Positions 3,479-49,532 are shown, counted from the first letter of the stretch. The stretch is 64,000 nucleotides of DNA from an uncultured archaeon (GCA_964342815.1 CAYFHS010000019.1:10285-74284); one strand, 5' to 3'. Numbers and translations are program-made. Notes: generated from the letters alone by a model not told the origin.

Positions 3479-3482
3479 ATTT

Positions 3483-4029: not shown

Positions 4030-4048
4030 TCGCAAGGTGTGAAATCTA

Positions 4049-31618: not shown

Positions 31619-34600
31619 ATGACCAAAGCAGTTGTCGTAAAAAAAAATAAAATCCTCGCAGGTATCGACGCCGGCTCAACCACAGCCAAGATATCGATTC
31701 AATCAGCAGAAGGTGAAGTGCTATTCAGTGATTATAGAAGGCATCTTGGTGATATTCCCAAGACCCTGATTGACATAATTATGAGAGCGAAACAGGAAAT
31801 GGGCGACATCGAAATATCTCTAGCCGTTACAGGTTCAGCTGGAATGGGATTAGCCGAGCGCATGGGTTTCCCTTTCGTTCAAGAGGTGGTTGCAACAGCC
31901 AGCTACATCAGGAAATATCATCCCGAAGTAAGAACCCTTATCGACATTGGGGGGGAGGATTCCAAGATAATATTGTTCGATGCGGAGGGAAGGCCCGATA
32001 TGCGAATGAACGGGAACTGCGCTGGCGGAACGGGTTCCTTCATTGATCAGATGGCCTCACTTCTAAATGTAGAGATAGGGGAGATGAACGATCTGGCGGA
32101 GGAATCGGGAACTGTTCAGACTATAGCTTCGAGATGTGGTGTTTTCGCCAAGACCGACGTACAGAACCTGCTTTCCCGGAGAATATCCAAGGAAGATATC
32201 TCGGCCTCCATCTTTCATGCTGTAGCGGTCCAGGCTGTCTCTACCCTTGCCAGGGGTTACGATCCGGGACCGAAGGTAATGTTCTGCGGCGGTCCATTAA
32301 CATTTCTTCCAATGCTCAAGAAAGCCTTCCTTGATTTTCTCGGTTTTACAGAAGAGGACGAACTTATTCCTGAAAATCCCCTGTTCATTCCTGCCATGGG
32401 AACTGCGTTATACAAAGAGACCCCTCACCTTGAAATCAAATTATCCGAACTGGGTGCTGTTATAAAGGCGGCTTCCGAGATTGACAACAAGGTGGAAGGG
32501 CGCCTTGACCCCCTCTTCACCGATGAATCTGAATTCATGGATTGGAATGCGGCAAGAATGGTGGAGATCGGGGAGAACACCGACATCTCGACCCTGAACA
32601 ATAAAAATTGCTTTTTGGGTATTGATTCTGGTAGTACGACCACCAAGATAGTGATCATCGATGAGAGGAGCCGATTGGCCTTTGGCTATTATGAAGGAAA
32701 CAAAGGAGATCCGGTGGGTGCCGTAATCAAGGGTCTCGAAAAACTTTCCCGGATCTGTGATGATGGTGGGATCGAGCTGAACATCGTAAATTCATGCGTC
32801 ACCGGTTATGGGGAGGACCTAATAAAGGCAGCGTTTTCCGTTGATATGGGGATAGTGGAAACCCTTGGACACTTCAGGGCAGCGTCCAAATTTATAAAGG
32901 GCGTTTCATTTATATTAGATATCGGCGGCCAGGACATGAAGGCCATATTCATCGAGAACGGCGTCATTACGGATATCGAGATCAATGAAGCATGTTCTTC
33001 GGGTTGCGGCTCATTCATTGAGACCTTTGCAAGGTCTCTAGGTTACGAAGTGGAAGAGTTCGCGAGAAGAGCGGCGTATTCCAAGGCTCCGTCGGACCTA
33101 GGGACTAGATGCACGGTCTTTATGAATTCCAAGGTGAAGCAGTCCTTCAGGGAAGGGGCGACGGTTGAGGATATCTCTGCCGGGCTTGCTTTCTCGGTGA
33201 TCAAGAACTGTCTTTATAAGGTGTTGAAAATAAAGGATACTTCAGTTCTGGGTGAAAAAATTGTGGTGCAGGGCGGTACCTTCCGTAATCCAGCGGTCCA
33301 CAGGGCATTGGAGCTTATTCTTGGGCAAAAAGTTGTCTGCTCTTCTGCTCCCGAACTTATGGGTGCGTACGGGGCTGCCCTAAAAGCTCTGGACCGGTGG
33401 AAGGAAGATTCCAGCATGATTTCCACTTTCGTGGGGATGAAGGGTATCGATGGGGCGCGAACGTGCGAGGCAAAACACGTTAGATGCAAGGGATGCGAGA
33501 ACCGCTGTACCGTTACAATGCTGAAATTCGATCCAAAACATTTATTCTATACCGGCAATAAATGCGAGAGATACTTTTCGAACAGGGGGGCGGATCACAG
33601 GAGGGGTGAGAATCTGCTGGCGTACAAATTGGATCTTCTGTTCGGCATCCAAAAAGAACCGGAGGGAGAGCCTCTGGCAACTGTGGGTATTCCCCGCGTG
33701 CTCAACATGTTCGAAAATTATCCTTTCTGGCACACTCTTTTTGTGGAATCTGGTATCAAAGTGGTTCTTTCACCTCCCTCCGAACAAAAGATATTGGAAT
33801 TGGGCGCCCGGACGGTGATGTCGGAGAACATATGTTTTCCTGCGAAGTTGACGAACGGGCATATATTCGCCCTCGCGCAGATGGGCGTGGACCGAATATT
33901 CTACCCGATGGTTGTGTTCGAGGAACAGGAGTACGACGATTCTCTGAACCAGTTCAACTGTCCCATCGTGACCAGTTATCCTGACGTGATAAGGAATGCC
34001 ATAATGCCAGATGTGAAATTCGGCATACCCTTCGATACACCACCGGTCTCCTTCGGGAGCATGAAACTACTCAAGGCCGTATGCTGGAAATACCTTAAGG
34101 GATTGGGAGTAAGGAAAAAAAGTTTCGAGAGAGCCTTTCGTGAAGCCTTAACGGCAAAACGGGAGTTCAAGGAGAAGCTGCGAAAACGCAGTTCCGAGAT
34201 AATTGATAAGGCGCGGAAGGAGGGACGGATGGTTGTGCTGCTTCTGGGAAGACCGTATCATCTGGATCAGTTCATCAATAAGAAGGTACCTGAAATGATC
34301 GCCGACCTTGGTGTCGATGTAATAAGCGAGGATTCGATCCCTTCTGACAGCGGTAAAGGATTGGATGATGTGGATGTGCTTACCCAGTGGGAATATCCGA
34401 ACCGAATATATGCTGCTGCAAGATGGGCGGTCACAAAGCCGGGTGTCGAGGTTGTTCAGCTTAATTCTTTCGGCTGCGGGCCGGACGCCCTGATATGTGA
34501 CGAGGCCAAGACGATACTGGGGCGAAAAGGGAAAACCCATACGCTCATCAGGATAGACGAGGTTTCGAGTCCGGGCTCCATTAAGCTAAGGCTGCGTTCA

Positions 34601-35905
34601 ATGATGGAATCGCTGGACCAGAGGCGCTCGGGTTCAGGTGCCGCTTTGTTGCCTGATCAGAAGAACAAACCCTTTTTGGAAGCCGATAAGGAGAAGACCC
34701 TGATTATACCGTACTTTTCTCCTTTCCATTCCACCCCTCTCGAGGAAGCCCTGAAAACTATGGGTTATAATTTTCACACACTTCCACCACCCGATCGGGA
34801 AAGCGTTGACGTGGGACAGAAATATACCAATAACGAGATCTGCTATCCGGCCACCATTGTAATAGGCGATCTGATAAAGGCACTTCAGTCCGGCGATTGG
34901 GATCTAGACAAGGTTGCAGTGGGATTGTCCCAGACCGGGGGGCAGTGCAGGGCGTCGAGCTACCTGTCCCTTCTTAAAAAGGCGTTGTTGTCCGCGGGTT
35001 TCGGCGACATTCCCGCCGTTACGGTGCATTTTTCAGATGAAAAATTGAACTATCAGCCCGGATTCCAGATCAGCAAGAAGAAGCTCGCACGTCTTGGTCT
35101 TTTGGGTGCGTTACTTTCCGATTCCATAATGCAGTTCCACCAGGCCACGGAGGTCCGTGAAAAGAAAAAAGGCAGTACACAGAAACTTACCGAACGCTGT
35201 CTCGATAGAATGAGCAAGATGATCACTGGAGAACTGAAAACAACACACTTGGCCTTGCTGCGTGAGGCGGTTGACGAGTTCAATCGTATCGAGACCCATG
35301 ACGGGGATTATCCGGCAGTAGGATTTGTTGGTGAAATTTACGTGAAATACAATCCTTTCGCCAATTTCCGGATGTGCGATTGGCTGAAGGACAAGGGTAT
35401 CGAAGTGGTTATCCCTCCCATGGTTGATTTCTTCACACAGGGTCTGATAAATACGCGGGAGAACCATAAAGCCAACATTCAACGTAGCAACAAGAATTAT
35501 TTCATGTCCTACCCCGTTCAATGGTTTATCAACTATCATCATAATCGCTTCGAGAAGATCAAAAAGAATTTCAAGTATTACAGGCGAACCCACAAGATCG
35601 ACGAACTGGCAGAGAAGGCATCGAAGATAGTCAGCCTTACCAATCAATTCGGCGAGGGATGGCTGATACCTGCGGAGATCGCCGCCTTTTACGAGGACGG
35701 AATTAAAAATATAATATGCGTTCAACCCTTCGGCTGCATAGCGAACCACGTGATAGGCAAGGGAATCGAAAGAAGAATGAAGGAGATATACCCGGACCTG
35801 AACATTTTGTACCTGGACTGCGACATGGGCTCTTCCGAGGTAAACGTCTTTAATAGATTGAATTTTCTCATCGAGTACGCGAGAGAGACCGTGGGGATGG
35901 TTTAA
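31619..35905 (+). CDS. acyl-CoA dehydratase activase-related fusion protein (two BcrA/BadF/HgdC-type ATPase domains plus a dehydratase-like C-terminal region)
   Basis: Two ASKHA-type activase modules are present (GIDAGSTTAKI...NGNCAGGTGSF and GIDSGSTTTKIV...NEACSSGCGSF). They are followed by about 800 aa of the region usually fused to them (DUF2229/HGD-D-like, from memory). Confidence 0.85.
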   Translation: MTKAVVVKKNKILAGIDAGSTTAKISIQSAEGEVLFSDYRRHLGDIPKTLIDIIMRAKQEMGDIEISLAVTGSAGMGLAERMGFPFVQEVVATASYIRKYHPEVRTLIDIGGEDSKIILFDAEGRPDMRMNGNCAGGTGSFIDQMASLLNVEIGEMNDLAEESGTVQTIASRCGVFAKTDVQNLLSRRISKEDISASIFHAVAVQAVSTLARGYDPGPKVMFCGGPLTFLPMLKKAFLDFLGFTEEDELIPENPLFIPAMGTALYKETPHLEIKLSELGAVIKAASEIDNKVEGRLDPLFTDESEFMDWNAARMVEIGENTDISTLNNKNCFLGIDSGSTTTKIVIIDERSRLAFGYYEGNKGDPVGAVIKGLEKLSRICDDGGIELNIVNSCVTGYGEDLIKAAFSVDMGIVETLGHFRAASKFIKGVSFILDIGGQDMKAIFIENGVITDIEINEACSSGCGSFIETFARSLGYEVEEFARRAAYSKAPSDLGTRCTVFMNSKVKQSFREGATVEDISAGLAFSVIKNCLYKVLKIKDTSVLGEKIVVQGGTFRNPAVHRALELILGQKVVCSSAPELMGAYGAALKALDRWKEDSSMISTFVGMKGIDGARTCEAKHVRCKGCENRCTVTMLKFDPKHLFYTGNKCERYFSNRGADHRRGENLLAYKLDLLFGIQKEPEGEPLATVGIPRVLNMFENYPFWHTLFVESGIKVVLSPPSEQKILELGARTVMSENICFPAKLTNGHIFALAQMGVDRIFYPMVVFEEQEYDDSLNQFNCPIVTSYPDVIRNAIMPDVKFGIPFDTPPVSFGSMKLLKAVCWKYLKGLGVRKKSFERAFREALTAKREFKEKLRKRSSEIIDKARKEGRMVVLLLGRPYHLDQFINKKVPEMIADLGVDVISEDSIPSDSGKGLDDVDVLTQWEYPNRIYAAARWAVTKPGVEVVQLNSFGCGPDALICDEAKTILGRKGKTHTLIRIDEVSSPGSIKLRLRSMMESLDQRRSGSGAALLPDQKNKPFLEADKEKTLIIPYFSPFHSTPLEEALKTMGYNFHTLPPPDRESVDVGQKYTNNEICYPATIVIGDLIKALQSGDWDLDKVAVGLSQTGGQCRASSYLSLLKKALLSAGFGDIPAVTVHFSDEKLNYQPGFQISKKKLARLGLLGALLSDSIMQFHQATEVREKKKGSTQKLTERCLDRMSKMITGELKTTHLALLREAVDEFNRIETHDGDYPAVGFVGEIYVKYNPFANFRMCDWLKDKGIEVVIPPMVDFFTQGLINTRENHKANIQRSNKNYFMSYPVQWFINYHHNRFEKIKKNFKYYRRTHKIDELAEKASKIVSLTNQFGEGWLIPAEIAAFYEDGIKNIICVQPFGCIANHVIGKGIERRMKEIYPDLNILYLDCDMGSSEVNVFNRLNFLIEYARETVGMV

Positions 35906-37910: not shown

Positions 37911-40118
37911 TTATTTTATTACTCCGTGGTCAGATAACGTGAACCATACCTGGTTCCCATTCATCTTTTCCGAGTTGACGATGCCTTTTGTAGAAAGATT
38001 TCCAAGATGATAGTATACTGTTCGAATGGAGGTTCCGTATTCATCCGCGACCTCCTTTGCGGATGAGCCGGGTTTTTTCCTAATGATCTCTATAATCCGC
38101 CTTTCAGCAGGTGTTAGATTGAATGGGTTTTTCTGAGCATTTGTAGGATAAAAATACCTGAATTTTCCGCCATTCGTAGAGCTTATCATCTTTCCCTTGT
38201 CTAACTTCCCAAGGTGATATGTCAAAGTCCCCCTTGACATGTCCAACTCTCTCTTCATTTCCGAATAATGTTTTCCCGGATTATTCTCAATATATGTAAG
38301 GATGCGCTTTCTGGTCTTATTACCAAGTATTGCCCTGCCTTTTATCCTGCTATAGATAAAAAGTCCCCCGAGAACGAGAACAAAAAACAGACCCAAGTAC
38401 AACCCGATCTCCAATTTTTTGCCACTCTTTTCCTTTACCCATCTGGTCGAATCGCGAGGATAAGCGTCATTTTCATTGGCCACTCCGTCGCCATCCCAGT
38501 CGAGTGGGGTGGAGTTCGGGTCATTCGGGTCACTCCCTGCTTCCTTTTCTTCAGCATCGGTCCAACCATCACTGTCGGTATCATTTTGAACACCAGGCGG
38601 CTCGTTTTGATTTCCTTCGAGAACGGTAACGATAAGGTCATCCATGTCTTTGAGCCCTGTTGCATCCGTGACGGTGAGGGTAACGGTAAAGTTCCCCGTT
38701 TTTTCAAATTTGAATGAACTTTTTACACCACGAAGGGAACGAACATTCCCGCTATAGTAAAAAGACCATGTATAATTTACGATCCCAACATTATCATAAC
38801 TGTCATTTCCGTTAAAATAGGCGGTACCACCCTGAATAATGGTAACGTTGTGGCCCGCTCTTGCAATTGGAGGGGTGCTATCCGCCTCCAATACAGTGAC
38901 CATAAAGGTATCTGTGGCCTGGTTTCCAGCATTATCAAAAATAATCAGACTTATCGTAAAGTTTCCTGTTCTGGTGAACGTGTACTGCGCTGTAATACCA
39001 TACCGAAATTGTTTCCCCCCGTCATCCAGGGACCACGTATAGTTCGTCACACCCACGTTGTCCGAACTGCCGCTGCCGTCGAAGGTTACGGTACCCCCTT
39101 GTACCACAGTAAGGTTCACCCCTGCATATGCCAAGGGTTTTGTGATGTCCATTACCGTGACGACTATCGAATCGGTTCCCTGGTTTCCCGCCACATCAGT
39201 AACTTTCAAGGCAACCGGGAAGCTTCCGGCATTGAAGAAAGAATATCCGGGCGACACTCCGAAGAGGGTAACTAGCCCTTTATCGTTAAAGGTCCATGAA
39301 TAATTCACCAGTCCATTATTATCGGTACTGCCATTAGCTATGAGATGTACCCTGTCTTTCTGGTTGATCGTCCTGTCCGGCCCGGCATCTGCTACCGGGA
39401 GGATAATGTCATATCCGCATTTAGTGTAGTTTAGCTTGGGTGACTGTTCCTTATTTCCAGCAGTATCGTTTGCTATCGAATAAAACCTGTAATGGCCATT
39501 ACCGTCGGAGAAATTAAATTGAAACGTCCATGGTGAAGAATTTTTCGATCCATAAAGAGACCAATCCCCCCAGCTTTTATTATCGGGACTGAATCGATAC
39601 CTTAGAGCCACATCACCTACCGCGGCATTTCCGGGAACGGCGTTCACGGTAATATTCAGGGAGGGTGAGTTGGTCCAGTATGGATAAATAAAATTGGCCC
39701 AGGATCTCGGTCTGATAGCGTTATATCCACATTCCGCATCCTTGAAGGCCGGGGCGTCCTCCCGGTTACCCTGCGCATCATTGGCTACCGAATAAAATTC
39801 ATAATTACCGCTGCCGTTCGGAAAAATAAATTCGTAAGACCACGGCGGTAGAAAGTCTGTTGCAAAGAGTCTCCATTCACTCCATGTCGAGTTGTCAACA
39901 CTGAATCGGTACCAGAGTTCTACGTTTTTGATAATGCTAAGATTGTCCCTTGCCGTAACGGTAATCTCGAACGGAACAACTTCTCTCAAATAAGGGATGA
40001 TGGGATCAACCCATGAGCGAGGGGGTTCATTATCCTGAACAACATCTTTATGCGCATACTTCAATCCACTGTTGGAATAATAACTGACATGAGGGCTGTT
40101 CGAGAGGTCTAATGCCAA
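37911..40118 (-). CDS. C-terminal part of a membrane-tethered regulator: 2 Ig-like modules, 3 PKD domains, TSP3-like Ca-binding module, TM, two cytoplasmic wHTH domains
   Basis: The track start is TTG and there is no signal peptide. Its first residues continue the repeat of the upstream ORF. The PKD pattern is DAGPDRTINQKD...GSTDNNGLVNYSWTF, three times. The Ca-binding module is DTDSDGWTDAEEKEAGSDPNDPNSTPLDWDGDGVANENDAYPRD. The TM is IGLYLGLFFVLVLGGLFIY. The wHTH domains are KRILTYIENNPGKHYSEMKRELDMSRGTLTYHLGKLDKGKMI and ERRIIEIIRKKPGSSAKEVADEYGTSIRTVYYHLGNLSTKGIV. Confidence 0.8.
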   Translation of the reverse strand: MALDLSNSPHVSYYSNSGLKYAHKDVVQDNEPPRSWVDPIIPYLREVVPFEITVTARDNLSIIKNVELWYRFSVDNSTWSEWRLFATDFLPPWSYEFIFPNGSGNYEFYSVANDAQGNREDAPAFKDAECGYNAIRPRSWANFIYPYWTNSPSLNITVNAVPGNAAVGDVALRYRFSPDNKSWGDWSLYGSKNSSPWTFQFNFSDGNGHYRFYSIANDTAGNKEQSPKLNYTKCGYDIILPVADAGPDRTINQKDRVHLIANGSTDNNGLVNYSWTFNDKGLVTLFGVSPGYSFFNAGSFPVALKVTDVAGNQGTDSIVVTVMDITKPLAYAGVNLTVVQGGTVTFDGSGSSDNVGVTNYTWSLDDGGKQFRYGITAQYTFTRTGNFTISLIIFDNAGNQATDTFMVTVLEADSTPPIARAGHNVTIIQGGTAYFNGNDSYDNVGIVNYTWSFYYSGNVRSLRGVKSSFKFEKTGNFTVTLTVTDATGLKDMDDLIVTVLEGNQNEPPGVQNDTDSDGWTDAEEKEAGSDPNDPNSTPLDWDGDGVANENDAYPRDSTRWVKEKSGKKLEIGLYLGLFFVLVLGGLFIYSRIKGRAILGNKTRKRILTYIENNPGKHYSEMKRELDMSRGTLTYHLGKLDKGKMISSTNGGKFRYFYPTNAQKNPFNLTPAERRIIEIIRKKPGSSAKEVADEYGTSIRTVYYHLGNLSTKGIVNSEKMNGNQVWFTLSDHGVIK

Positions 40119-41990
40119 AGATATTATCTTTCAAACCCCTTGGAATCCACTATTTCCTTCTGCCATACGCTGCCGTTCCAGAAAGCATATTTCAAATAAT
40201 AATTGGGCCAGTAATCATAGTAAGCTATATGCGGCCGGTCGTTAGAGTCGACGGCAATGGAAGTATACTCTCCGACATAGCCATTTGAATCCACTGTCTC
40301 AATTATCCATGCACCACCGTTGTGGTGAGCGTATTTCAAGTCCCGGTTGGGAAGGCCGTCGTAATAACTGATATGAGGCCGATTGGCTGAATCCAATGAT
40401 AAGGAAGAGAACGCACCTACAATGCCTTGTGCATCCACGGTCTCTACAGACCATGAATTACCGTCGTAATAAGCATATTTCAGGTCATCATTATTGCCCC
40501 CATCCTGATAACTGATGTGGACATTATCGTTCTGGTCCACCGCAATCGAACTCCACATCCCAACCCGACTCTCGGAATCTACCGTCTCGTTATGCCAGGA
40601 CAAGCCATCCCAATATACATATTTCAGATCGCCTTCGGGCCATTCTCCCACACAGCAACTGAAATGGGGCCGGTCATTGGAATCCAACGCGATAGAGGTG
40701 GAATAATAGGTCTTTATACCCAAAGAAGTAATATTCCAATTATTTCCGTCGTAATAAGCATATTTCAAGTAACTATTCTCCCAATCACCGGTACAATAAA
40801 CGATATGGGGCCGGTCATTTGAATCTATAGCAATGACGCTGGTATTGTATGTATCACCTATGGAATCTACTGTATCCGTATGCCACTGGGCTCCATCATA
40901 ATAAGAATATTTCAGTTTGTCATCTGAACCATTGTAATAGGTGATATGGGGCCGGTTGCTTGAATCCATGGCAATGGAGGAAAACTCCCCATATCGATCG
41001 TCTATCGATAGAATGGTCCAATCGTTGGGAGGATTGTTGTATGCGTATTTTAGCCATGTATCCGGCCAATCGGAATCATCACTATAACAAATATGCACTT
41101 GGTCACTTTCATCTATGGCCAAAGAAAAAAATCCCAAAACCTCGGAATCCTCATCTACTGTCTCGATATTCCATACTCCCCCATCCCAGTATACATATTT
41201 CAGATAAAAATCGGGCCAGCGATCTAAATAAGCTATATGCGGTCGGTCATTAGAGTCAATGGCTAAAGAAGTATGACGATCAACATAACTATCGGAATCG
41301 ACCGTTTCATTATTCCAAACATTTCCATCGTAATATGTATATTTCAGATCATAGTCGGGCCAATACCTGAGATAACTGATATGCGGTCTGTCGTTGGAAT
41401 CAAGAGCGATGGAAGTATAAAACCCCACATTCATCCGCGGATCCGCAGTCTCGTTATGCCACGTATTCCCATCGAAGTAGGCATATCTCAGTTTGAAATA
41501 ATTCCAAACACCGGCACTATACGCTATATGCGGCCGATCGTTAGAATCCACAGCAATGGAATTATAACCTCCCACATCCCATTGGGTTTCAAGTGTTTCA
41601 TTTTGCCACGCTATACCATCCCAATGCGCATACATCAGGTTGCGATCAGGCCAATTACCGATACAATAACTTATATGAGGTTTGTCGTTCGAGTCCAATG
41701 AAAGTGAGGCTGAATCCACATAGATATCTAAAATAGTAATATTCCACGAATTATTGAAGTGTGCATATTTTAAGGATTGATTATACCATCCACCTGTGCA
41801 ATAAGTGATATGCGGCCGGTCATTCGTATCCAACGCGAGGGTTGTGCTATTGTATTTCAGGCCAACATTGTCCACAATTTCGATTTGCCACTGAGCTCCA
41901 TCGTTATAAGCATATTTCAATTTGGAATTTTGATGATCTAAATAACTGATATGCGGTCGACCATTTGAATCAAGAGCTATGGATGTATAA
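40040..41990 (-). repeat. 14 in-frame tandem repeats of about 141 nt (RPH...LKYAY...W units) spanning the junction of ORFs 40124..42202 and 37911..40118
   Basis: I counted 13 D(S/T)xDxPH(I/F)x(Y/C) cores in the upstream ORF. A 14th core (DLSNSPHVSYYSNSGLKYAH) lies at the start of the downstream ORF. Confidence 0.8.
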
Positions 41991-42202
41991 TCACTATAAG
42001 TATCTACCGTATTGATCGACCAGCCACTGGCCTTGACACTGCTTCTGAGGTTTTTTTCACGATTCTGACTGTCAGGATACTCTTTGATATTTGACGATTG
42101 ATCTTTTTCATTTCCAATGATTGGTTGGCCGATTCCAATAAAGATAAGGAGGAGAGCGATCAACAGCCCCCCGATTTGGGATTTTATTTTTATCATCTCC
42201 AT
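40124..42202 (-). CDS. N-terminal part of the same protein: signal peptide plus 13 tandem repeats of about 47 aa (beta-propeller-like)
   Basis: The signal/anchor is IGGLLIALLLIFIGIGQPIIG. Thirteen units of the form S(I/L)A(L/V)DSNDRPHI(S/A)Y........LKYAY.DG..W..E.VD....VG.. follow. The ORF stops in mid-repeat. Confidence 0.8.
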   Translation of the reverse strand: MEMIKIKSQIGGLLIALLLIFIGIGQPIIGNEKDQSSNIKEYPDSQNREKNLRSSVKASGWSINTVDTYSDYTSIALDSNGRPHISYLDHQNSKLKYAYNDGAQWQIEIVDNVGLKYNSTTLALDTNDRPHITYCTGGWYNQSLKYAHFNNSWNITILDIYVDSASLSLDSNDKPHISYCIGNWPDRNLMYAHWDGIAWQNETLETQWDVGGYNSIAVDSNDRPHIAYSAGVWNYFKLRYAYFDGNTWHNETADPRMNVGFYTSIALDSNDRPHISYLRYWPDYDLKYTYYDGNVWNNETVDSDSYVDRHTSLAIDSNDRPHIAYLDRWPDFYLKYVYWDGGVWNIETVDEDSEVLGFFSLAIDESDQVHICYSDDSDWPDTWLKYAYNNPPNDWTILSIDDRYGEFSSIAMDSSNRPHITYYNGSDDKLKYSYYDGAQWHTDTVDSIGDTYNTSVIAIDSNDRPHIVYCTGDWENSYLKYAYYDGNNWNITSLGIKTYYSTSIALDSNDRPHFSCCVGEWPEGDLKYVYWDGLSWHNETVDSESRVGMWSSIAVDQNDNVHISYQDGGNNDDLKYAYYDGNSWSVETVDAQGIVGAFSSLSLDSANRPHISYYDGLPNRDLKYAHHNGGAWIIETVDSNGYVGEYTSIAVDSNDRPHIAYYDYWPNYYLKYAFWNGSVWQKEIVDSKGFER

Positions 42203-42390
42203 TCCTCCTGGACACCTGTTTGGCGGGTGCCGACGTCAGTTGGATTATTTAATTTCTAAACCCTTTCTAATCTCTCTATGCAAATATTGTATATATATGA
42301 AAATTGGTCCAATCTTATCATTGGCAACTTTTTTGCTTCTGTCAATGTCCAATTTCATCGAAAGTTCGACTCCATTCACTTGAAAACGGT

Positions 42391-45078
42391 CTATTTCCTC
42401 CTTCGTATTATTGTAAAGAGTATCGCCATCATTGAAAAGAAAAAAATAATTCCGATCGACCACCACCATACCGCGGTATTCCTCGAAATCTTTAGCTTCC
42501 CCCTGTCGGGGTCGTCCGGGAATAAATCATCTTCATTAGAAATATTGTCGCCGTCCCTATCGGGATCAAGCGAATCGGGTATACCGTCTCCGTCCGAGTC
42601 CCGCGGGACCGAGAGCTTGTTCCGGGGATCCGTACCCACTTGAGTTTCGATGGTGTTCTTCCATCCGTCCCCGTCGATATCACTATCCATATAATCAAGA
42701 ATCCCATCATCATCTATATCTGTATAATACACAATAATCGCTAGGGTTGTATAATTCGTGGAGTTGTCATCATCCATAATGGAGAGATTTACATAATATA
42801 CTCCGGCATTTGGATAGGCATGCATCGGGTTTATTGCATAGCTAAAGGAATCGTCTCCAAAATTCCACGAATAATTTAGAACCTCGCCGTCCATATCATA
42901 AGAGTTTGAACTAAATTGTATTATCTCGTTTTCATATACTGCAAGATTATTGGCAGTGACATTGACTATCGGCGGTCGATTGAGTACCGTTATCAGCATT
43001 TTTGAATAAACCTTCGAGCCATCATCATCTTCAATTTTTAGATGTACCGTATAAACGCCATTATCGGAGTAGCTATGTACCGGATTTGGTGATGTGCTGA
43101 TATTTTCATCTCCGAAGTCCCAACTATATGTCATAGTTCCATCAAAGTCATTTGCATTTGCTTTAAATTCTATTGGAACATATGTGTAAACGATAATTTC
43201 ATTTGCCGTAGGCGAGACAGTAGGTGGTCGATTAAGTACAGTTATCGCTTGCGTGATCCAATCACTTTCAATGAACAGGTCTCGTACCTTTAGCTTTGTT
43301 TCATAAACCCCATCATCGGAATAGTTATGATTTACAATAGAATTGTTGATCCAGCTAGTCGTATTTCCGTCACCAAAGTCAAAATAATACTGTATCGGGC
43401 CATTATCAGTTGAGTTAGATGCGTTGAAATTAACTTTTTCCAGGGTATGTACTATTTGAGGATAGACCGTAAAAAGAGGAGTTGGGATTGCATTGACATT
43501 GATATTTAATACGAATACATTATTATCTTCATCGCTTTCATTAATATTGTTATCGCGATCCACCATAATTTCTAATTTATGTTCTCCTGCTACGGCTACC
43601 CATTGAAATGATATAAATTGTGAAGTATTTACATGCAGAAAATTTACCGTTGTCCTGTTGATGGTTTTATTATCCACTGCGAACTCAACCGGAATTTCCA
43701 TAGCATCCAAGCGGCCCAAATTCCGTACTGTTGTATTTATATACACTAGCTCATTCTCGGTTACATTATTGGGTGAGTGTGAGATACGATCAGGTTTAAG
43801 GTCCGGTTTGCGTGTCCGAACACCAAAGACATAAAGATGTTCTTTACCACCAATAATAACTTCTTTTCGAGAATCATCATCAACATTCCCGGTGGCTACA
43901 ACAGGGGTAAGATATGGATATTCGCCATAAAAAACGTCCAAGTCATATTCCCACAATATTTCAAAATTCGTTGCGTCAAAAATGTATATCTTCTCATTAC
44001 CGCTGCCATTGGTAATATTGCTTACAGTCCCAACGATAATTTCATTTTTAGTGTCATTATCCAGATCATCAACAACTAAATGGCCAGTGTGATATAAATT
44101 ATCACTTCGCCGTTCCAGGTCATGTGTCGACCCGTTTAACAGATAAATATATCCTCGTTGAGGGTAAACATCTACAACACTGATCAATATCCCGCCCGAA
44201 ATGGTCATACCCATACATCGGTCCCCGTAGAAATCTCCAGCCATATACAAAGGGTAGATCCATTCGGGTTCATGGCTTATACCATCAAAGACATATAAGG
44301 ATACACCGCAACCACTTGTTGCTGCAATAATCTCGCAAACACCATCGTTATCCACATCGGCAATCTCTATTTTTGCTGCGATCAGACCAAAACCACAAGG
44401 ATCAGTTCCCATACCCTCAAGATGTACTTCCTCTAAACTGGGACTCTTCCATTCGAGAGTGTGGTTAATAGCGTCGAATATATAGATATAACCCTCCTGA
44501 TCAGAGTATTCCCCATGCCCGGTAGCCAGGATGAGTTCTTTTGCACCGTCAGAATCAACATCGCCTACAGCAATATCATAAATGGGATCCAAGGATCCAT
44601 TTACGTTGTTACTATCGATCACCCATTTTTCCGTATAGCCAGTACCATTATACTCAAAACCACGTATCCAACCCGACCAATAGTAGACACCATAAATAAT
44701 AATTTCCGGAGTTCCATTGTCGTTTATGTCTTCTACTAAAATACCGCGACATTGCCGGTTACGTTGAGAGATGTACTTCCATTTCACACTACCGTTTATA
44801 CCATCCCAAACATAGATATATGAAACATCCTCTCGACGATTAAAGTCACCTGTAACTATGTCATTTATACCATCCTGATCTACATCGCCCAATGCTAAAT
44901 AACTAACATTTATCTTTTTCTGCCATTTCAATGCCGCATATTCCTCTAGGGCGCGTACCCGGTTTAACTCATAAGGTATTTCATCATTATCATCCGATCT
45001 TACGGTTTTAAAAGCAAACAGTTGGAGTAATATAATTAGGAGGCATAGGAATACTTTTCTGTTAGTTCCCATATTCAT
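42391..45078 (-). CDS. surface protein: FG-GAP/VCBS beta-propeller, CARDB, 3 PKD domains, TSP3-like Ca-binding module, C-terminal TM
   Basis: The signal peptide is VFLCLLIILLQLFAFKTVRS. FG-GAP Ca-loops are GDVDQDGINDIVTGDF, VGDVDSDGAKELILAT, IADVDNDGVCEIIAAT, VDDLDNDTKNEIIVGT and GNVDDDSRKEVIIGG. The CARDB region is KPDLKPDRI...VRNLGRLDA...ESDEDNN. The PKD pattern is FDFGDGNT.../WDFGDENI.../WNFGDDSF. The protein ends in a TM segment followed by RRRK. Confidence 0.9.
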   Translation of the reverse strand: MNMGTNRKVFLCLLIILLQLFAFKTVRSDDNDEIPYELNRVRALEEYAALKWQKKINVSYLALGDVDQDGINDIVTGDFNRREDVSYIYVWDGINGSVKWKYISQRNRQCRGILVEDINDNGTPEIIIYGVYYWSGWIRGFEYNGTGYTEKWVIDSNNVNGSLDPIYDIAVGDVDSDGAKELILATGHGEYSDQEGYIYIFDAINHTLEWKSPSLEEVHLEGMGTDPCGFGLIAAKIEIADVDNDGVCEIIAATSGCGVSLYVFDGISHEPEWIYPLYMAGDFYGDRCMGMTISGGILISVVDVYPQRGYIYLLNGSTHDLERRSDNLYHTGHLVVDDLDNDTKNEIIVGTVSNITNGSGNEKIYIFDATNFEILWEYDLDVFYGEYPYLTPVVATGNVDDDSRKEVIIGGKEHLYVFGVRTRKPDLKPDRISHSPNNVTENELVYINTTVRNLGRLDAMEIPVEFAVDNKTINRTTVNFLHVNTSQFISFQWVAVAGEHKLEIMVDRDNNINESDEDNNVFVLNINVNAIPTPLFTVYPQIVHTLEKVNFNASNSTDNGPIQYYFDFGDGNTTSWINNSIVNHNYSDDGVYETKLKVRDLFIESDWITQAITVLNRPPTVSPTANEIIVYTYVPIEFKANANDFDGTMTYSWDFGDENISTSPNPVHSYSDNGVYTVHLKIEDDDGSKVYSKMLITVLNRPPIVNVTANNLAVYENEIIQFSSNSYDMDGEVLNYSWNFGDDSFSYAINPMHAYPNAGVYYVNLSIMDDDNSTNYTTLAIIVYYTDIDDDGILDYMDSDIDGDGWKNTIETQVGTDPRNKLSVPRDSDGDGIPDSLDPDRDGDNISNEDDLFPDDPDRGKLKISRNTAVWWWSIGIIFFFSMMAILFTIIRRRK

Positions 45079-45156: not shown

Positions 45157-48100
45157 TTATTCCTCTCTTCCAACCCTCCCGAGTTCTTCCTCCACACAAT
45201 CCAAATTATCCTCCTCACCTATCCTCTCTCTCCTTTTCGTAACCAACACAACTCCCAAAACTATCCCAAGCACCAATACCAAAATCCCAACTCCCACGAG
45301 CCACCACATCCCGCTATTTCCTCCTTTCATATTTTCCGATCCTTCCCACCGCTCCCTGTCATCCGGATAAGCGTCGTCCACGTTCGCCACTCCATCTCCG
45401 TCCCTATCGGGATCAAGCGAATCGGGTATGCCATCAGCGTCCGAGTCCCGCGGGACCGAAAGATTACTCAGAGGATTCGTGCCCACTTGCGATTCGACGG
45501 AATTATTCCAGCCGTCGCCGTCCCAATCTATGGGTGTGGAGAGTGGGTCGTAGGGATCACTGCCCTGTTCAAGTTCATAAGTGTCGTTGTAGGTGTCGTT
45601 GTCGGAATCAGCATCAGGAAATGGATTAATTTCACTTTCAACCATAATAACAATAGAATCCGTTACGGTAATGCCGTTATCCACAATAATCGACAAAGTT
45701 ACAGTATAGTTTCCAGGACTTACAAATACATGGATAGGATTCGACTCAAGGCTCGTATTCCCATCTCCAAAATTCCAGAAATACTGGACATCCATATTTC
45801 CGTTAGTATTGTTCAGTATGCCTTCGAAGGAAACGTTCAATGGGCTAACACCATGCGTTGGATTTGCTATAATTTCTACAATTGGTGTATTATTGGGAGA
45901 TTCCCTTGCTACGGATATCGCCATCTCGGCCTTACCAAAATCTCCATCGTCATCGGTAATGTTCAACGATACAAAATATGTTCCTGGTACTGAATAAACA
46001 TGTGATGGATTTTGCTGGTGACTCGTATTTCCATCTCCAAAGGACCAATTCCAGGAGACAATTGTACCGTCCGGATCAATGGACCCTGTGCTGTTGAACT
46101 CGACTATCTCGTCAATATCCGGGTGAATTGGTGTGAAAGAAATATTAATGATTGGAGGAACATTCAGAACCGCTATTGATTTTGTTGTATTATTTCCCCA
46201 TCCCTCATTATCACGTACCGCTAGGGTCACATTATATTCTCCGTCATCATTGAATAAATGCACCGGGTTCTGATCATAGGATATATTTTCGTCCCCAAAA
46301 TTCCAGGTCCAATTTACAATAGAATTTGTATCATTTGCATCGGGGTCTACGGAAGTATCTAAAAATTGAATTTCATCCATATCGGTAGGATCTATCGGTA
46401 GGTATGAAAAATCAGCCATAGGAGTGACATTTACCACTTCAATCTCTCTTGTTAACTTGACAGATAAACCATCATTATCCGTGACCACCAGTTGTACTGC
46501 GTAAATGCCTTCATCAGAATACTGATGGATCGGATTTTGAAAAGCGGAGGTATTTCCATCCCCGAAATTCCAGAACCATGATTCTATGGATCCATCAAAA
46601 TCTGACGAAGTATCGCTGAATCTCACATTTTTCATGGCAATTAGTATGTGGGGATCATAAGAAAAGTTGATGGCGGGCGGAATTAGCGGCCAGACTACAT
46701 GGATATCAACGGGGATCATTAATGGATACTCATCTCTGTTATATCGACCGTCACTAATATTATACGGCGTATCTCCTATACCATCACTTTCCGGTTCATC
46801 TTGATTCACACCGGAGAATGTGTCATTACCGGAATAATTACTCCAGTAATTACCTCCCGATGGATAAGTATCATTCCAGTAATTCTTGCCACCAAAGTCG
46901 CCTGCCTGCCCATTCTCATCCAAATTGCCGATTATATTATTGTGATGTATGATATTGTTTTCACCACCGCCAATGCATCTCTCCAATAAAATTGCCAAGC
47001 CATCATTCCGGGATATATTATTGTATTTAATAAGATTATCAGAAGAAGTGATCATATAGATCCCACGTCCATTATATGAGATATTATTATATAAAACAAC
47101 ATTTTCACTATGATGAGCACCGCCGAGATGGGTGAAGTGTATACCATCGTATGTATTAAAAATAATTGAATTATACTGAATTATGTTGTTATCACTATTT
47201 TCTTTACCATCCATTTGACTGCCAAATATAATGCCAAATCGGTTCTTTATAATTGTATTGTTTTCAATACAGCCGTTTGTTACATTAATGAAGACTATGC
47301 CATCACTGACATTATTTCCACTATGGATGCAGCAGTTTTTAATTACAAAATATTTGCTAACGTTTCGAATTTCAATTCCCGCTTGGTTGGATGCATTAAT
47401 AACCCAATCCTTAATTATGTAGGGATCATTCGGTGTACCTCTGCCTGAGCTAACGCCATTTTCCAATGTGAAATTTTCATGGCCGACGATCCTTATCGGC
47501 TCATGGGCCCAATATATAGGGACATTGATTTGAGCATCGTTTTCAGGTACATTTGGGTCGGTACCTTTAACATATTCTTCAAGATTGGTCTCTCCATCGT
47601 TGTCGGGGTCTTCATTTGCATCGCTGGAATCATTGGGATTCAATCCATGGTCGATTTCCCAATTATTAGGCATCCCGTCCCAATCCAGGTCCTCTGGAAG
47701 AAATGGCTCAATTCGTTCACTCCAATTCGTATCACAATAATCTATTGAATCAGAAGGATTGATCAGCGGATAATAATCGACATCATGCCAAGGGAGGTTT
47801 GTATCACCGATGCCATCTTCGTTTTCATCAGTTCCATTGTAATCAGACCAATGGTTACCATGCCCTGCTGTATCATTCCATGTGTTAGACGATTGTGGCC
47901 ATCCGATCTTTTTATTATAAGTACAGTTAATAAAGTTATTAAAAAAAGCTTTATTACCCGCAGATTGTATTATTAACGGATCAGTATTGTTAATGAAATT
48001 ACATTCAATGACAGAATTGTTCCTCGGACCAGGGATGCAATCCAAATCAGGGTCTTCATCCATTACGATCCCCTTACAAGAATAGAAGTTACATCTATAA

Positions 48101-48591
48101 AATAAAATATTCGACGTACCTCGAAAAAGAAAATTCATATTAAAGAAGTCACAATAGTTATAATTTAAAGTCCCAGGTGAGATATTTCCGCTTAGGTCCT
48201 TACTATAAGAAAAAAGAAAAATTCTATTGCTTTGCGTTCCATTTAGTACTATTGAGTCCGGCCGTCCGAATCCAAGGCTCGAATGAGGATAAAAAATTAT
48301 TACTGTTCCCGGTTCAATCGTTAGAGTAGAATTGTTTTTTATTCCGATAAAATCAATAATGTAATATGGACTATTTTCCTTTGTCCAGGTCGTGTTTTCG
48401 ATTATTTTTTCAAAAACAATCGTTCCCGGATCACCACGGGGGACCATGGATTCTGTGTTGGGAATCGGTTTGAAAAAGGATGGGTCATTTTCCGATTTTT
48501 TCGTTATATCAAAGGTTGAAATGAGATTGAATACCAGAATGACAGTTATGAGTATGTTTAGACCGTGTCTCTGCATTTCGCCTCTTGTCAT
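45157..48591 (-). CDS. surface protein: two right-handed beta-helix (NosD/PbH1-like) regions, 5 PKD domains, TSP3-like Ca-binding module, TM
   Basis: PbH1-like periodicity is seen (NCCIHSGNNVSDGIVFINVTNGCIENNTIIKNRFGIIFG...YNNISYNGRGIYM...YNNISRNDGLAIL). Five W(N/S)FGDGNTS PKD cores are present. DSDADGIPDSLDPDRDGDGVANVDDAYPDD is followed by the TM segment WWLVGVGILVLVLGIVLGVVLV. Confidence 0.9.
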   Translation of the reverse strand: MTRGEMQRHGLNILITVILVFNLISTFDITKKSENDPSFFKPIPNTESMVPRGDPGTIVFEKIIENTTWTKENSPYYIIDFIGIKNNSTLTIEPGTVIIFYPHSSLGFGRPDSIVLNGTQSNRIFLFSYSKDLSGNISPGTLNYNYCDFFNMNFLFRGTSNILFYRCNFYSCKGIVMDEDPDLDCIPGPRNNSVIECNFINNTDPLIIQSAGNKAFFNNFINCTYNKKIGWPQSSNTWNDTAGHGNHWSDYNGTDENEDGIGDTNLPWHDVDYYPLINPSDSIDYCDTNWSERIEPFLPEDLDWDGMPNNWEIDHGLNPNDSSDANEDPDNDGETNLEEYVKGTDPNVPENDAQINVPIYWAHEPIRIVGHENFTLENGVSSGRGTPNDPYIIKDWVINASNQAGIEIRNVSKYFVIKNCCIHSGNNVSDGIVFINVTNGCIENNTIIKNRFGIIFGSQMDGKENSDNNIIQYNSIIFNTYDGIHFTHLGGAHHSENVVLYNNISYNGRGIYMITSSDNLIKYNNISRNDGLAILLERCIGGGENNIIHHNNIIGNLDENGQAGDFGGKNYWNDTYPSGGNYWSNYSGNDTFSGVNQDEPESDGIGDTPYNISDGRYNRDEYPLMIPVDIHVVWPLIPPAINFSYDPHILIAMKNVRFSDTSSDFDGSIESWFWNFGDGNTSAFQNPIHQYSDEGIYAVQLVVTDNDGLSVKLTREIEVVNVTPMADFSYLPIDPTDMDEIQFLDTSVDPDANDTNSIVNWTWNFGDENISYDQNPVHLFNDDGEYNVTLAVRDNEGWGNNTTKSIAVLNVPPIINISFTPIHPDIDEIVEFNSTGSIDPDGTIVSWNWSFGDGNTSHQQNPSHVYSVPGTYFVSLNITDDDGDFGKAEMAISVARESPNNTPIVEIIANPTHGVSPLNVSFEGILNNTNGNMDVQYFWNFGDGNTSLESNPIHVFVSPGNYTVTLSIIVDNGITVTDSIVIMVESEINPFPDADSDNDTYNDTYELEQGSDPYDPLSTPIDWDGDGWNNSVESQVGTNPLSNLSVPRDSDADGIPDSLDPDRDGDGVANVDDAYPDDRERWEGSENMKGGNSGMWWLVGVGILVLVLGIVLGVVLVTKRRERIGEEDNLDCVEEELGRVGREE

Positions 48592-48856: not shown

Positions 48857-49495
48857 CTATGGAATAAAATCGAATAGCTCGGGCCCGATCATAACGGAGA
48901 TCATATACTTGTTGTCATAAATATGGAAATCCTTCATTTGTACGTTCTTCATCTTCGCTATCTCGAATGAGAATTTATTCATTTCCGGTATCGAACTGAA
49001 ACTGAACATCAGTTTTTGTTCCGAGAGGACCTTGTCCCGCAGATCGTTAACGAGCTTCAGCGCGGCTTTGACCTCGTCAATGGTGGTAACTTTCTCCGAT
49101 TCCCGCTGGTCCTTCCGCTTCAATGCCTCGGAAACCGTCAGCATCAGCTCGTCGTTATCCCAGGGTTTGCCTATGTAACTGTATACGTGGGCCTTGTTAA
49201 TAGCTTCCTTTGCTATGTCTATGTCTGAAAAACCAGTAACTAGTATTCTTATTGTGCTGGGCCAGATCTCCTTTGCTCTTCCCAGAAGTTCCACGCCGGT
49301 CATTCCCGGCATCTTGTAATCAGCGAGAATAAGGTCATATTCCTTTTCCACCAGCTTTCCGAGAGCTTCATTTCCATTGGATGATGTGGTAACCTCACAT
49401 TTAAAATCATCAGAAAATTCCAGAATCTTCGATAGAGAGTCCAAAATATTCTCCTCGTCGTCCACTACCATTATACGATAGGTTTTCTTGGCCAC
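48857..49495 (-). CDS. response regulator: receiver domain plus an uncharacterised C-terminal domain of about 90 aa
   Basis: The REC domain is YRIMVVDDEENILDSL...DLILADYKMPGMTGVELL...ILVTGFSD...KPW. I did not recognise the C-terminal part. Confidence 0.85.
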   Translation of the reverse strand: MAKKTYRIMVVDDEENILDSLSKILEFSDDFKCEVTTSSNGNEALGKLVEKEYDLILADYKMPGMTGVELLGRAKEIWPSTIRILVTGFSDIDIAKEAINKAHVYSYIGKPWDNDELMLTVSEALKRKDQRESEKVTTIDEVKAALKLVNDLRDKVLSEQKLMFSFSSIPEMNKFSFEIAKMKNVQMKDFHIYDNKYMISVMIGPELFDFIP

Positions 49496-49532
49496 TTGAT
49501 CCGCTCCTAGGTCGCTTATCTACTATAGTTAT

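What the first reader, a model, noticed from the sequence alone, without database searches (positions are those of the whole stretch)
37911..42202. Giant extracellular sensor/adhesin fused through one TM helix to two cytoplasmic winged-helix domains (copy 1): candidate membrane-tethered one-component transcription factor
When read as one gene (see the separate frameshift finding), the locus encodes a modular protein. The order is signal peptide, 14 propeller-like repeats, 2 Ig-like modules, 3 PKD domains, a DxDxDG Ca-binding module, a single TM, a basic juxtamembrane stretch (YSRIKGRAILGNKTRKR) and two tandem ArsR-like wHTH domains. The signal peptide and positive-inside rule place the DNA-binding domains in the cytoplasm, with more than 1200 residues outside. 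This resembles ToxR/CadC-type transmembrane transcription factors, or Notch/SREBP-type proteolytically released factors. The ectodomain is of unusual size, and the context is archaeal. The same chassis recurs twice more in this window (58324..62193 and 11959..12868), always among giant surface-protein genes. That pattern suggests a dedicated system coupling surface sensing to transcription.
Basis: partly seen in the sequence, partly recalled or inferred. Interest (0 to 1): 0.8.

Follow-up and report, generated by a model that had tools for sequence, protein, structure and literature searches.

The report
Archaeal surface receptor fused to DNA-binding tail
This marine archaeal gene encodes a 1,428-residue cell-surface protein with a sugar-lectin-like outer part, one membrane helix and two DNA-binding-type domains inside the cell; it belongs to a large, unstudied archaeal family that probably links what the cell touches outside directly to gene control, although this copy is broken by a one-base deletion.

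Summary
Window 37911..42202 (-) is one gene broken by a single missing base near 40125. Another metagenome assembly (L005) carries the same DNA with that base present and encodes an uninterrupted 1,428-aa protein.

- an N-terminal hydrophobic signal
- 14 blades, modelled as two seven-bladed lectin-like propellers
- 2 Ig-like modules, 3 PKD domains and a TSP3 calcium stalk
- one TM helix
- two ArsR-like winged helices, in a basic, cysteine-free tail (AlphaFold pLDDT 91)

It is not unique. A profile of the TM-plus-tail module finds thousands of proteins. Of the best 150, 122 have a TM helix about 150 residues from the C-terminus, behind variable surface-type ectodomains. Genome-resolved relatives are archaeal: Thermoplasmata, Methanoregula and unclassified MAGs.

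It fits the published class of transmembrane transcription regulators. It differs from ToxR/CadC and ArnR in topology (N-out, C-terminal DNA-binding domain), type of DNA-binding domain and ectodomain size. DNA binding, signalling and proteolytic release are all untested.

Copy 2 (58324..62193) shares the chassis. "Copy 3" (11959..12600) is a soluble paralogue, not a membrane form.

Verdict: a new variant of a known kind, of moderate to high interest.

The parts
37911..42202 (-). Whole gene (copy 1). The intact allele encodes 1,428 aa (1,430 from the upstream ATG). In this window it is split into 692-aa and 735-aa ORFs.
40124..40126 (-). Site of the 1-bp deletion relative to the intact allele (GATATATATC becomes GATA-ATATC). 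It creates the TAA stop at 40126..40124.
   Evidence: L006 shares the deletion; L005 lacks it.
42113..42202 (-). N-terminal hydrophobic signal peptide or signal anchor (MEMIKIKSQIGGLLIALLLIFIGIGQPIIG).
   Evidence: hydropathy; helix 5-22
40044..42022 (-). Fourteen ~48-aa blades, forming two predicted seven-bladed, lectin-like beta-propellers.
   Evidence: (BNR_4)
39396..40019 (-). Two tandem ~104-aa Ig-like modules, 41% identical to each other.
   Evidence: (Big_13, weak)
38610..39395 (-). Three PKD domains.
   Evidence: PKD_4 E 4.7e-37, 3 stretches
38439..38585 (-). TSP3-type DxDxDG calcium-binding repeats plus the conserved AYPRDxxRW stalk that precedes the TM.
   Evidence: TSP3_bac 22.3 bits, below the cutoff of 25; 27.5 bits in orthologue P0002; the stalk motif is seen directly
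38352..38414 (-). Single transmembrane helix (LEIGLYLGLFFVLVLGGLFIY).
38322..38354 (-). Conserved juxtamembrane motif Y-[ST]-R-[IL]-K, modelled as a continuation of the TM helix.
38145..38321 (-). Winged helix 1, ArsR/HTH_20-like. Homologous to PDB 5duk.
37932..38117 (-). Winged helix 2, HTH_24/MarR/ArsR-like. Homologous to PH1932 (PDB 1uly).
42203..42334 (-). Upstream block conserved with the orthologue's upstream region, more strongly than the coding DNA. It holds a TATA-like CATATATATA flanked by the palindromes ATTGGACCAAT (42303..42313) and TGCAA-TAT-TTGCA. It is a candidate promoter and operator.
   Evidence: the palindrome is not repeated elsewhere in the window
58324..62193 (-). Copy 2: intact 1,289-aa paralogue with DUF2341, Laminin_G_3, PKD x3, TSP3 stalk, TM and 2 wHTH.
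11959..12600 (-). Soluble paralogue of the tandem-wHTH tail (213 aa, no TM). It is not the membrane chassis.

Best explanation
The gene encodes a type-I single-pass membrane protein. About 1,230 residues lie outside the cell: two lectin-like seven-bladed propellers, 2 Ig-like modules, 3 PKD domains and a Ca-binding stalk. One TM helix follows. Immediately after it comes a basic ~145-residue cytoplasmic tail made of two ArsR-like winged helix-turn-helix domains.

It belongs to a large archaeal family in which this constant TM+tail is fused to interchangeable surface or glycan-binding ectodomains. The most likely function is a one-component transmembrane transcription regulator. Binding of an external polymer, particle or surface by the ectodomain would change the clustering or orientation of the receptor. 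That in turn would change how the tandem wHTH tail engages operator DNA at the membrane, tuning genes for surface or degradative functions and possibly its own promoter.

Shown here: the architecture, the topology, the wHTH folds, the existence of the family and the archaeal host. Inferred: DNA binding, ligand sensing, signal transmission and target genes.

In this window the gene carries a 1-bp deletion that separates the secreted propeller part from the anchored part. This copy is therefore a recent null allele (or, less likely, an assembly error) of a gene that is intact elsewhere in the same population.
For: - Intact allele and collinear orthologue.
- Only two hydrophobic segments, with positive-inside bias across 39 members.
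- Pfam matches above the curated cutoffs: HTH_20 53.9 bits against 27, HTH_24 54.6 against 21.9, HTH_5 28 against 22, HTH_HVO_0163_N 64.2 against 31.
- The tail profile matches PDB 5duk 'putative DNA binding protein' at E 2.6e-16, and also ArsR-family and MarR-family repressors.
- The AlphaFold tail model has pLDDT 90.9 and shows two canonical wHTH units.
- Single-domain fold matches are to the DNA-binding repressors MecI, CzrA, SmtB, ArsR and SqrR, at rmsd about 1-1.6 A.
- Tails have median pI 9.8 and net charge +11, with the conserved recognition-helix motifs GTLxHHL and TxxYH.
- The same tandem-wHTH unit also exists as free soluble proteins, including one in this window, so it is an autonomous module.
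- Family size: 5,043 representatives at E<=1e-10. Of the top 150, 122 have a TM helix 135-205 residues from the C-terminus.
- Ectodomains are of binding or glycan-recognition kinds: PKD, NosD/beta-helix, Laminin_G_3, CarboxypepD_reg and a propeller lectin fold.
- The class 'transmembrane transcription regulators' is documented in archaea (PMC10269533).
Against: - No DNA target, ligand or regulon was identified. The palindromes in the conserved upstream block occur only once in the window.
- The best whole-tail fold matches are tandem winged-helix proteins that bind RNA or proteins: SelB, ScpB, RPC34/62 and ESCRT-II.
- The tether between the TM helix and wHTH1 is only a few residues. This may hinder DNA access from the membrane.
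- Gene neighbourhoods are not conserved between orthologues.
- The copy in the window is disrupted.
Confidence: 0.5

Rival explanations
1. Proteolytically released factor (Notch/SREBP/RIP-like). The receptor is inert while anchored. Ligand binding or mechanical pull on the giant ectodomain triggers juxtamembrane or intramembrane cleavage, and the freed tandem-wHTH fragment acts as a soluble transcription factor.
For: - The tether is extremely short, and the Y-[ST]-R-[IL]-K motif at the cytoplasmic face is nearly invariant.
- Soluble paralogues of the same tandem-wHTH unit exist, so the unit works untethered.
- The TM helix is Gly-rich.
- Adhesin-like ectodomains with a Ca-stiffened stalk would suit force transmission. 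This last point is inference.
Against: - No site-2 protease, rhomboid or other protease gene appears in any of the neighbourhoods examined.
- The conserved motif may simply cap the TM helix or form part of the first helix of the ArsR-like fold.
- There is no experimental evidence of cleavage.
Confidence: 0.2
2. It is primarily a structural surface adhesin or lectin. The tandem winged-helix tail would be a non-regulatory cytoplasmic anchor that binds a protein partner, RNA or the nucleoid non-specifically, as ScpB, ESCRT-II or SelB winged helices do.
For: - Whole-tail Foldseek hits are led by SelB, ScpB, RPC34/62 and ESCRT-II.
- Neighbouring paralogous surface proteins share the same PKD-TSP3-stalk-TM chassis without any HTH.
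- No operator was found.
Against: - Sequence profiles place both domains in the ArsR/MarR DNA-binding families above the curated cutoffs, and the nearest solved homologue is annotated as DNA-binding.
- The tail is strongly basic and its recognition-helix motifs are conserved.
- The closest free-standing relatives look like ordinary small transcription regulators.
Confidence: 0.15
3. The two ORFs are the real, functional arrangement in this strain: a secreted 692-aa propeller lectin plus a separate downstream protein. Alternatively, the break is read through by programmed -1 frameshifting.
For: The deletion appears in the window and again in the contig behind L006. The assemblies otherwise differ only by single-base indels, with zero substitutions.
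Against: - The break lies inside a propeller blade.
- The downstream ORF has no signal peptide and only a TTG start.
- The intact allele (L005) and the orthologues P0002 and P0160 are continuous.
- The site is not a slippery heptamer. It is a T lost from an (AT)n run.
Confidence: 0.07

Closest known systems
Transmembrane transcription regulators (TTRs) as a class (Demey et al. 2023, PMC10269533)
   Same: A predicted TM region and a DNA-binding domain sit in one polypeptide. Single-pass forms predominate. The class is reported in archaea (1,384 archaeal TTRs in 367 species), and HTH_20 and HTH_24 are among the DNA-binding domains listed.
   Different: The census defines the class only by TM plus DNA-binding domain. 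It does not describe this architecture: a giant N-terminal ectodomain, one TM helix and a C-terminal tandem ArsR-like wHTH. 'PKD' was not found in the held parts of its supplements. No member of the present family has been studied.
ToxR / CadC / TcpP bitopic regulators (bacteria)
   Same: They are single-pass membrane proteins that couple an extracytoplasmic sensor directly to a winged-helix DNA-binding domain, with no phosphorelay.
   Different: The topology is opposite: ToxR-type proteins have an N-terminal cytoplasmic DNA-binding domain and a C-terminal periplasmic sensor. Their DNA-binding domain is OmpR-type Trans_reg_C, which Pfam does not match here. They have one wHTH rather than two, small sensors and a longer linker (established knowledge of these families).
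ArnR / ArnR1 of Sulfolobus acidocaldarius (PMC6396743; Lassak et al. 2013, as cited in PMC4858521)
   Same: They are archaeal, membrane-bound, one-component wHTH regulators that control surface structures.
   Different: By my recollection of the ArnR papers, ArnR has an N-terminal cytoplasmic HTH and C-terminal TM helices. I did not test this, and PMC4858521 instead describes an N-terminal TM domain. ArnR has no large ectodomain and is a crenarchaeal family. No sequence relationship to it was detected here.
Bacteroides hybrid two-component systems such as BT4663 (description in PMC5121618; hybrid TTRs in PMC10269533)
   Same: The outer sensor is built from two seven-bladed beta-propellers followed by an Ig-like all-beta spacer, then a TM helix, with an HTH DNA-binding domain at the cytoplasmic C-terminus. 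These systems sense complex carbohydrates.
   Different: BT4663 inserts histidine-kinase and receiver domains between the TM helix and an AraC-type HTH. The archaeal proteins have no kinase or receiver and go straight from the TM helix into ArsR-like wHTH domains. The propellers show no detectable sequence relationship to BT4663: there is no Reg_prop Pfam hit and BT4663 is not among the top 50 fold matches.
ArsR/SmtB metalloregulators
   Same: Both tail domains match the HTH_5/HTH_20 profiles and superpose on CzrA, SmtB and ArsR at about 1-1.6 A.
   Different: There is no cysteine anywhere in the tail, and no helix after the wing in wHTH1. The tail is a covalent tandem rather than a homodimer. 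The NCBIfam HTH_metalloreg score is below its cutoff, 45.3 against 55. The protein is membrane-anchored.

Membership tests
Transmembrane transcription regulators (class, PMC10269533) | At least one predicted TM region in the same polypeptide as a DNA-binding domain | tested here: met
   The TM helix lies at residues ~1263-1288. HTH_20, HTH_24 and HTH_5 score above the Pfam cutoffs. The definition is quoted.
Transmembrane transcription regulators (class, PMC10269533) | Actually regulates transcription from the membrane | not testable with these tools
   This needs DNA-binding and expression experiments.
ToxR/CadC-type regulators | OmpR-type (Trans_reg_C) winged-helix DNA-binding domain | tested here: not met
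   There is no Trans_reg_C match at E<=0.01. The matches are to ArsR, MarR and HTH_24 types.
ToxR/CadC-type regulators | N-terminal cytoplasmic DNA-binding domain with a C-terminal periplasmic sensor (type II topology) | tested here: not met
   The order is reversed: the signal peptide and ectodomain are N-terminal and the wHTH pair is C-terminal.
ArsR/SmtB metalloregulators | HTH_5/HTH_20 winged-helix fold | tested here: met
   HTH_20 scores 53.9 bits (cutoff 27) and HTH_5 28 bits (cutoff 22). Fold matches include CzrA, SmtB and ArsR.
ArsR/SmtB metalloregulators | Metal- or thiol-sensing ligand residues (alpha3/alpha3N Cys motif or alpha5 His/Asp/Glu site) | tested here: not met
   The tail sequence contains no Cys. 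The model has no helix after the wing of wHTH1. NCBIfam HTH_metalloreg is below its cutoff.
Pfam PF24266 (HTH_HVO_0163_N) | Profile match above the gathering score | tested here: met
   The score is 64.2 bits against 31, with two stretches. All 72 scanned family members match. The family has no known function.
Notch/SREBP-type regulated-proteolysis factors | Signal-dependent cleavage that releases the cytoplasmic DNA-binding fragment | not testable with these tools
   No linked protease genes were seen, but such proteases need not be linked.
Bacteroides hybrid two-component sensors (BT4663-like) | Histidine kinase and receiver domains between the TM helix and the HTH | tested here: not met
   There is no HisKA, HATPase_c or Response_reg match in the protein.
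Beta-propeller lectin / BNR-type propeller (ectodomain) | Four-stranded blades arranged as seven-bladed propellers | tested here: met
   There are 14 repeats. The model has pLDDT 84.8 with four strands per repeat. The top Foldseek hits are the PLL/PHL seven-bladed lectins (E about 1e-13) and double propellers. Ligand specificity was not tested.

The most novel reading that the evidence does not exclude
Thermoplasmata-like and methanogen archaea may carry a large, unrecognised receptor family. Giant adhesin- or lectin-type ectodomains would sense contact with particles or polymers. The signal would then be transmitted Notch-style, by cleavage at the invariant Y-[ST]-R-[IL]-K juxtamembrane motif, which would release a tandem-wHTH transcription factor. 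This would be a prokaryotic counterpart of eukaryotic release-type membrane-bound transcription factors, and possibly a main route of environmental sensing in uncultured marine archaea.
Probability: 0.15. Interest if true: 0.85.

Novelty: new variant of a known kind. Interest (0 to 1): 0.55.

Why it matters
Uncultured marine and sediment archaea are thought to live on polymers and particles, yet how they sense them is almost unknown. Archaea have few classical two-component systems, and the only studied archaeal membrane-bound regulators (ArnR/ArnR1) have no large sensor.

A large family that wires interchangeable glycan- or protein-binding ectodomains directly to a DNA-binding tail would be a simple, modular sensing system. 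It would give concrete handles for experiments: a soluble ~145-residue tail for DAP-seq, a conserved juxtamembrane motif to mutate, and lectin-like propellers for glycan arrays.

It also extends the transmembrane-regulator concept to a type-I, C-terminal-DBD, tandem-wHTH design with ectodomains of more than 1,200 residues.

Tried and rejected
**Searches that gave nothing**
- The word-indexed protein search with the 172-aa tail found nothing. The exhaustive profile search was needed.
- The first genome-contig scan with the single protein found no relative.
- The 39-sequence alignment was too diverse for pattern design. A 6-sequence alignment worked.
- Exact-product look-ups for the split ORFs, and for the neighbour of copy 3, were not on record. 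Allele frequencies could therefore not be counted.
- There are no tRNA or Rfam features in the window.
- Literature searches found no description of this specific family or of PF24266.

**Readings rejected**
- Programmed frameshift: an intact allele exists and the site is not slippery.
- 'Copy 3' as a frameshifted membrane form: its relatives are TM-less.
- The upstream palindrome TTGGNCCAA as a shared operator: it occurs once, against about 1.6 expected by chance.
- Membership of the ToxR/CadC family and of the metal-sensing ArsR family: defining features were not met.

Full report
**1. Observation**

The region 37911..42202 holds two minus-strand ORFs: 40124..42202 (692 aa) and 37911..40118 (735 aa, TTG start). 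They are in different frames. The stop of the first falls inside the last of fourteen ~48-aa repeats, each carrying an xDSNDRPHIxY core and a YxDGxxW Asp-box-like motif. The repeat continues in the second frame.

The one-gene reading is directly proven. Looking up the neighbouring 895-aa gene retrieved independent metagenome contigs.
- In L005 (ENA ERZ17294083, 76 kb) the gene is a single 1,428-aa ORF.
- In L006 (ERZ17293550) it is split, as in the window.
- Over the gene, the only difference between L005 and the window is one T: GATATATATC against GATA-ATATC, near window 40125. The true junction reads ...VDSKGFERYISLALDLSNSPHVSYY...
- A more distant orthologue, P0002 (1,428 aa, from another sample), is 72.5% identical with zero gaps over 1,428 residues.
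- P0160 (1,175 aa) repeats the propeller...PKD...TM...2xwHTH order.

Across 22.7 kb the assemblies show zero substitutions. They differ only by three single-base indels: this one, plus A6/A7 at 52162 and G3/G4 at 52931. I cannot tell whether the deletion is a real recent null allele, which its recurrence in the window and L006 favours, or a technical artefact. Either way the functional gene product is the 1,428-aa protein.

**2. Anatomy**

Kyte-Doolittle hydropathy finds only two hydrophobic segments, residues 3-32 and 1263-1288. The modules, in order:
- *Propellers.* The N-terminal 692 aa model with pLDDT 84.8 as all-beta, four strands per repeat. The best fold matches are the seven-bladed propeller lectins PLL/PHL of Photorhabdus (E about 1e-13), tandem double propellers (Elp2, GH74, DDB1) and BNR-type glycosidase folds. 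Pfam gives BNR_4. The 14 repeats are therefore two seven-bladed, lectin-like propellers. This module alone has more than 3,200 homologues in bacteria and archaea, nearly all unnamed.
- *Ig-like modules.* Two ~104-aa modules follow, 41% identical to each other.
- *PKD domains.* Three, with PKD_4 at E 4.7e-37.
- *Stalk.* TSP3-type DxDxDG repeats (22.3 bits, just under the cutoff; 27.5 bits in P0002) and a conserved AYPRDxxRW stalk.
- *TM helix and tail.* One TM helix and a 147-residue tail.

Across 39 family members the 15 residues after the TM helix carry a net charge of +3.4, against +0.05 before it. Together with the extracellular-type domains on the N-terminal side, this places the tail in the cytoplasm.

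**3. The tail**

- Pfam matches HTH_HVO_0163_N (64.2 bits), HTH_24 (54.6), HTH_20 (53.9) and HTH_5 (28.0), all above their curated cutoffs and each over two stretches or two separate regions.
- A profile of 39 tails hits PDB 5duk ('putative DNA binding protein', E 2.6e-16) with wHTH1. It hits PH1932, ArsR and MarR/AdcR-type repressors with wHTH2.
- AlphaFold with that alignment gives pLDDT 90.9. One helix runs from the TM segment through the juxtamembrane YSRIKGRAIL (residues 2-34 of the fragment). Then come H-H-H-hairpin (38-95), an 11-residue linker, and H-H-H-hairpin (107-164).
- Individual domains superpose on MecI, CzrA, SmtB, ArsR and SqrR at about 1-1.6 A. The whole tandem is closest to tandem-winged-helix proteins: SelB, ScpB, RPC34/62 and ESCRT-II.
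- The tails are basic (median pI 9.8, net +11). They conserve the motifs Y-[ST]-R-[IL]-K, N..R..I..YI..NPG.H, GTL.HHL.KLE, LTP.Q and T..YH...L.
- The tail of copy 1 has no cysteine, so it is not a thiol or metal ArsR sensor.

**4. Family and host**

A profile of the three window tails was searched against 1.84 billion representatives. It found 10,721 proteins at E<=1e-3, 5,043 at E<=1e-10 and 41 at E<=1e-30. Among the best 150:
- 122 have a hydrophobic segment 135-205 residues from the C-terminus.
- 66 of those also have an N-terminal hydrophobic segment.
- The part before the TM helix has a median of 342 residues and reaches 1,374.
- 23 have no TM helix at all.

All 72 scanned members carry the HTH pair. 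Their ectodomains vary: PKD in 20, NosD in 10, TSP3 in 9, He_PIG in 8, beta-helix in 7 and CarboxypepD_reg in 6.

Genome-resolved relatives are archaeal. Four paralogues sit in one 'uncultured archaeon' MAG, and others are in Thermoplasmata MAGs and Methanoregula. Contexts contain TBP, Topo VI, ELP3, eIF-6, L31e and S19e. The window itself encodes ribosomal S8e, RIO1 and a Dim2-like KH protein. Copy 2 is found verbatim on Tara Oceans marine contigs. The host is therefore a marine archaeon, probably Thermoplasmatota; the phylum is an inference.

**5. The other copies**

Copy 2 (58324..62193, 1,289 aa) is intact. It has DUF2341, Laminin_G_3, three PKD domains, the stalk, a TM helix and two wHTH domains, and is 43% identical to copy 1 from the PKD region onward.

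The neighbours 42391..45078 and 45157..48591 share the PKD-TSP3-stalk-TM chassis but end in a short basic tail without any HTH.

'Copy 3' (11959..12600) has the two wHTH domains. Its closest relatives are the TM-less members, some with a third wHTH. The upstream 3-TM ORF (12578..12868) is a separate frame with no fused homologue. I read it as a soluble paralogue.

**6. Mechanism**

The shown facts fit a one-component membrane receptor whose output domain is a DNA-binding tandem wHTH. I favour action as a transmembrane transcription regulator, with ectodomain engagement changing clustering or orientation and hence operator binding (confidence about 0.5).

Release by proteolysis is a serious alternative (about 0.2). 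The tether is almost nil, the juxtamembrane motif is nearly invariant, and soluble versions of the same unit exist.

A non-regulatory anchoring role (about 0.15) is kept alive by the SelB/ScpB/ESCRT-II-like whole-tail matches and by the absence of any identified operator.

About 125 nt upstream of copy 1 is 84% identical overall to the orthologue's upstream region. A core of roughly 60 nt is nearly identical, whereas the gene DNA is about 79% identical. This block holds a TATA-like element flanked by ATTGGACCAAT and TGCAA-TAT-TTGCA. It is a candidate promoter and operator, but the palindrome is unique in the window, so it defines no regulon.

**7. Comparison with known systems**

The class 'transmembrane transcription regulators' (TM region plus DNA-binding domain) has been catalogued, including 1,384 archaeal proteins. 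HTH_20 and HTH_24 account for about 1.2% each (PMC10269533). The studied archaeal cases are ArnR and ArnR1 (PMC6396743).

This family meets the class definition but is not a ToxR/CadC relative: the DNA-binding domain type and the topology were both tested and not met.

The nearest functional analogue is the Bacteroides hybrid two-component sensor BT4663. Its sensor has two seven-bladed propellers plus an Ig-like spacer outside the cell and senses carbohydrates (PMC5121618). Hybrids of this class also carry a DNA-binding domain (PMC10269533). The archaeal proteins lack the kinase and receiver domains.

No paper in the searched library describes this family or PF24266.

**8. Verdict**

The thing itself is a new variant of a known kind: a type-I, C-terminal tandem-ArsR-wHTH, giant-ectodomain transmembrane regulator family of archaea, with the copy in this window disabled by a 1-bp deletion.

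Noticed in passing
window 52162 and 52931 (gene 51135..52871 and upstream ORF 52859..53440, minus strand): Independent assemblies of the same population differ from the window only by single-base homopolymer indels (A7/A6 and G3/G4), with zero substitutions. These indels fuse or split a histidine kinase that carries an unusual N-terminal prenyltransferase-like alpha-alpha toroid domain. Together with the copy 1 deletion, this suggests either indel-prone contingency sites or assembly noise.
   Followed up: partly
window 42203..42334: The upstream block of copy 1 is conserved with the orthologue's upstream region more strongly than the coding DNA. It has a TATA-like run flanked by two short palindromes (ATTGGACCAAT and TGCAA-TAT-TTGCA). 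The first palindrome is unique in the window.
   Followed up: partly
window 11959..12868: A soluble tandem-wHTH paralogue (213 aa) is preceded by a 96-aa three-TM ORF that overlaps it by 23 nt in another frame, at an A-rich run. The relatives of the wHTH protein are TM-less, and some carry three wHTH units.
   Followed up: partly
window 48857..52871: A cluster of two-component genes (three receiver-domain proteins, a receiver-HisKA-HATPase hybrid and the prenyltransferase-domain kinase) lies between the surface-protein genes. Such clusters are uncommon in many marine archaeal lineages (my recollection).
   Followed up: no
window 6464..11869: A 1,801-aa ORF has an N-terminal signal-like segment, a C-terminal TM helix and a cytoplasmic tail of about 150 residues. 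It has no Pfam match at all at E<=1e-4.
   Followed up: no
window 12975..15668, 25166..27952, 42391..45078, 45157..48591, 62.5 kb to the end: The window is dense with large surface-protein genes (Big_7 repeats, PKD, FG-GAP/CARDB, NosD/beta-helix). Several share the same TSP3-stalk-TM ending as the regulator genes but lack the HTH tail, which suggests domain shuffling on a common chassis.
   Followed up: partly
window 31619..35905: A 1,428-aa fusion of BcrAD_BadFG ATPase and DUF2229 (CoA-enzyme activase type) lies next to the surface-gene cluster.
   Followed up: no
L017 (ENA ERZ24794666 NODE_13283) 295..4560 and 6604..9948: Two further family members (1,421 and 1,114 aa) sit about 2 kb apart (divergently oriented) on one contig, next to a 2,334-aa LTD/PLDc giant. 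Four paralogues occur in one MAG (CAYRFL01). This indicates lineage-specific expansion.
   Followed up: partly
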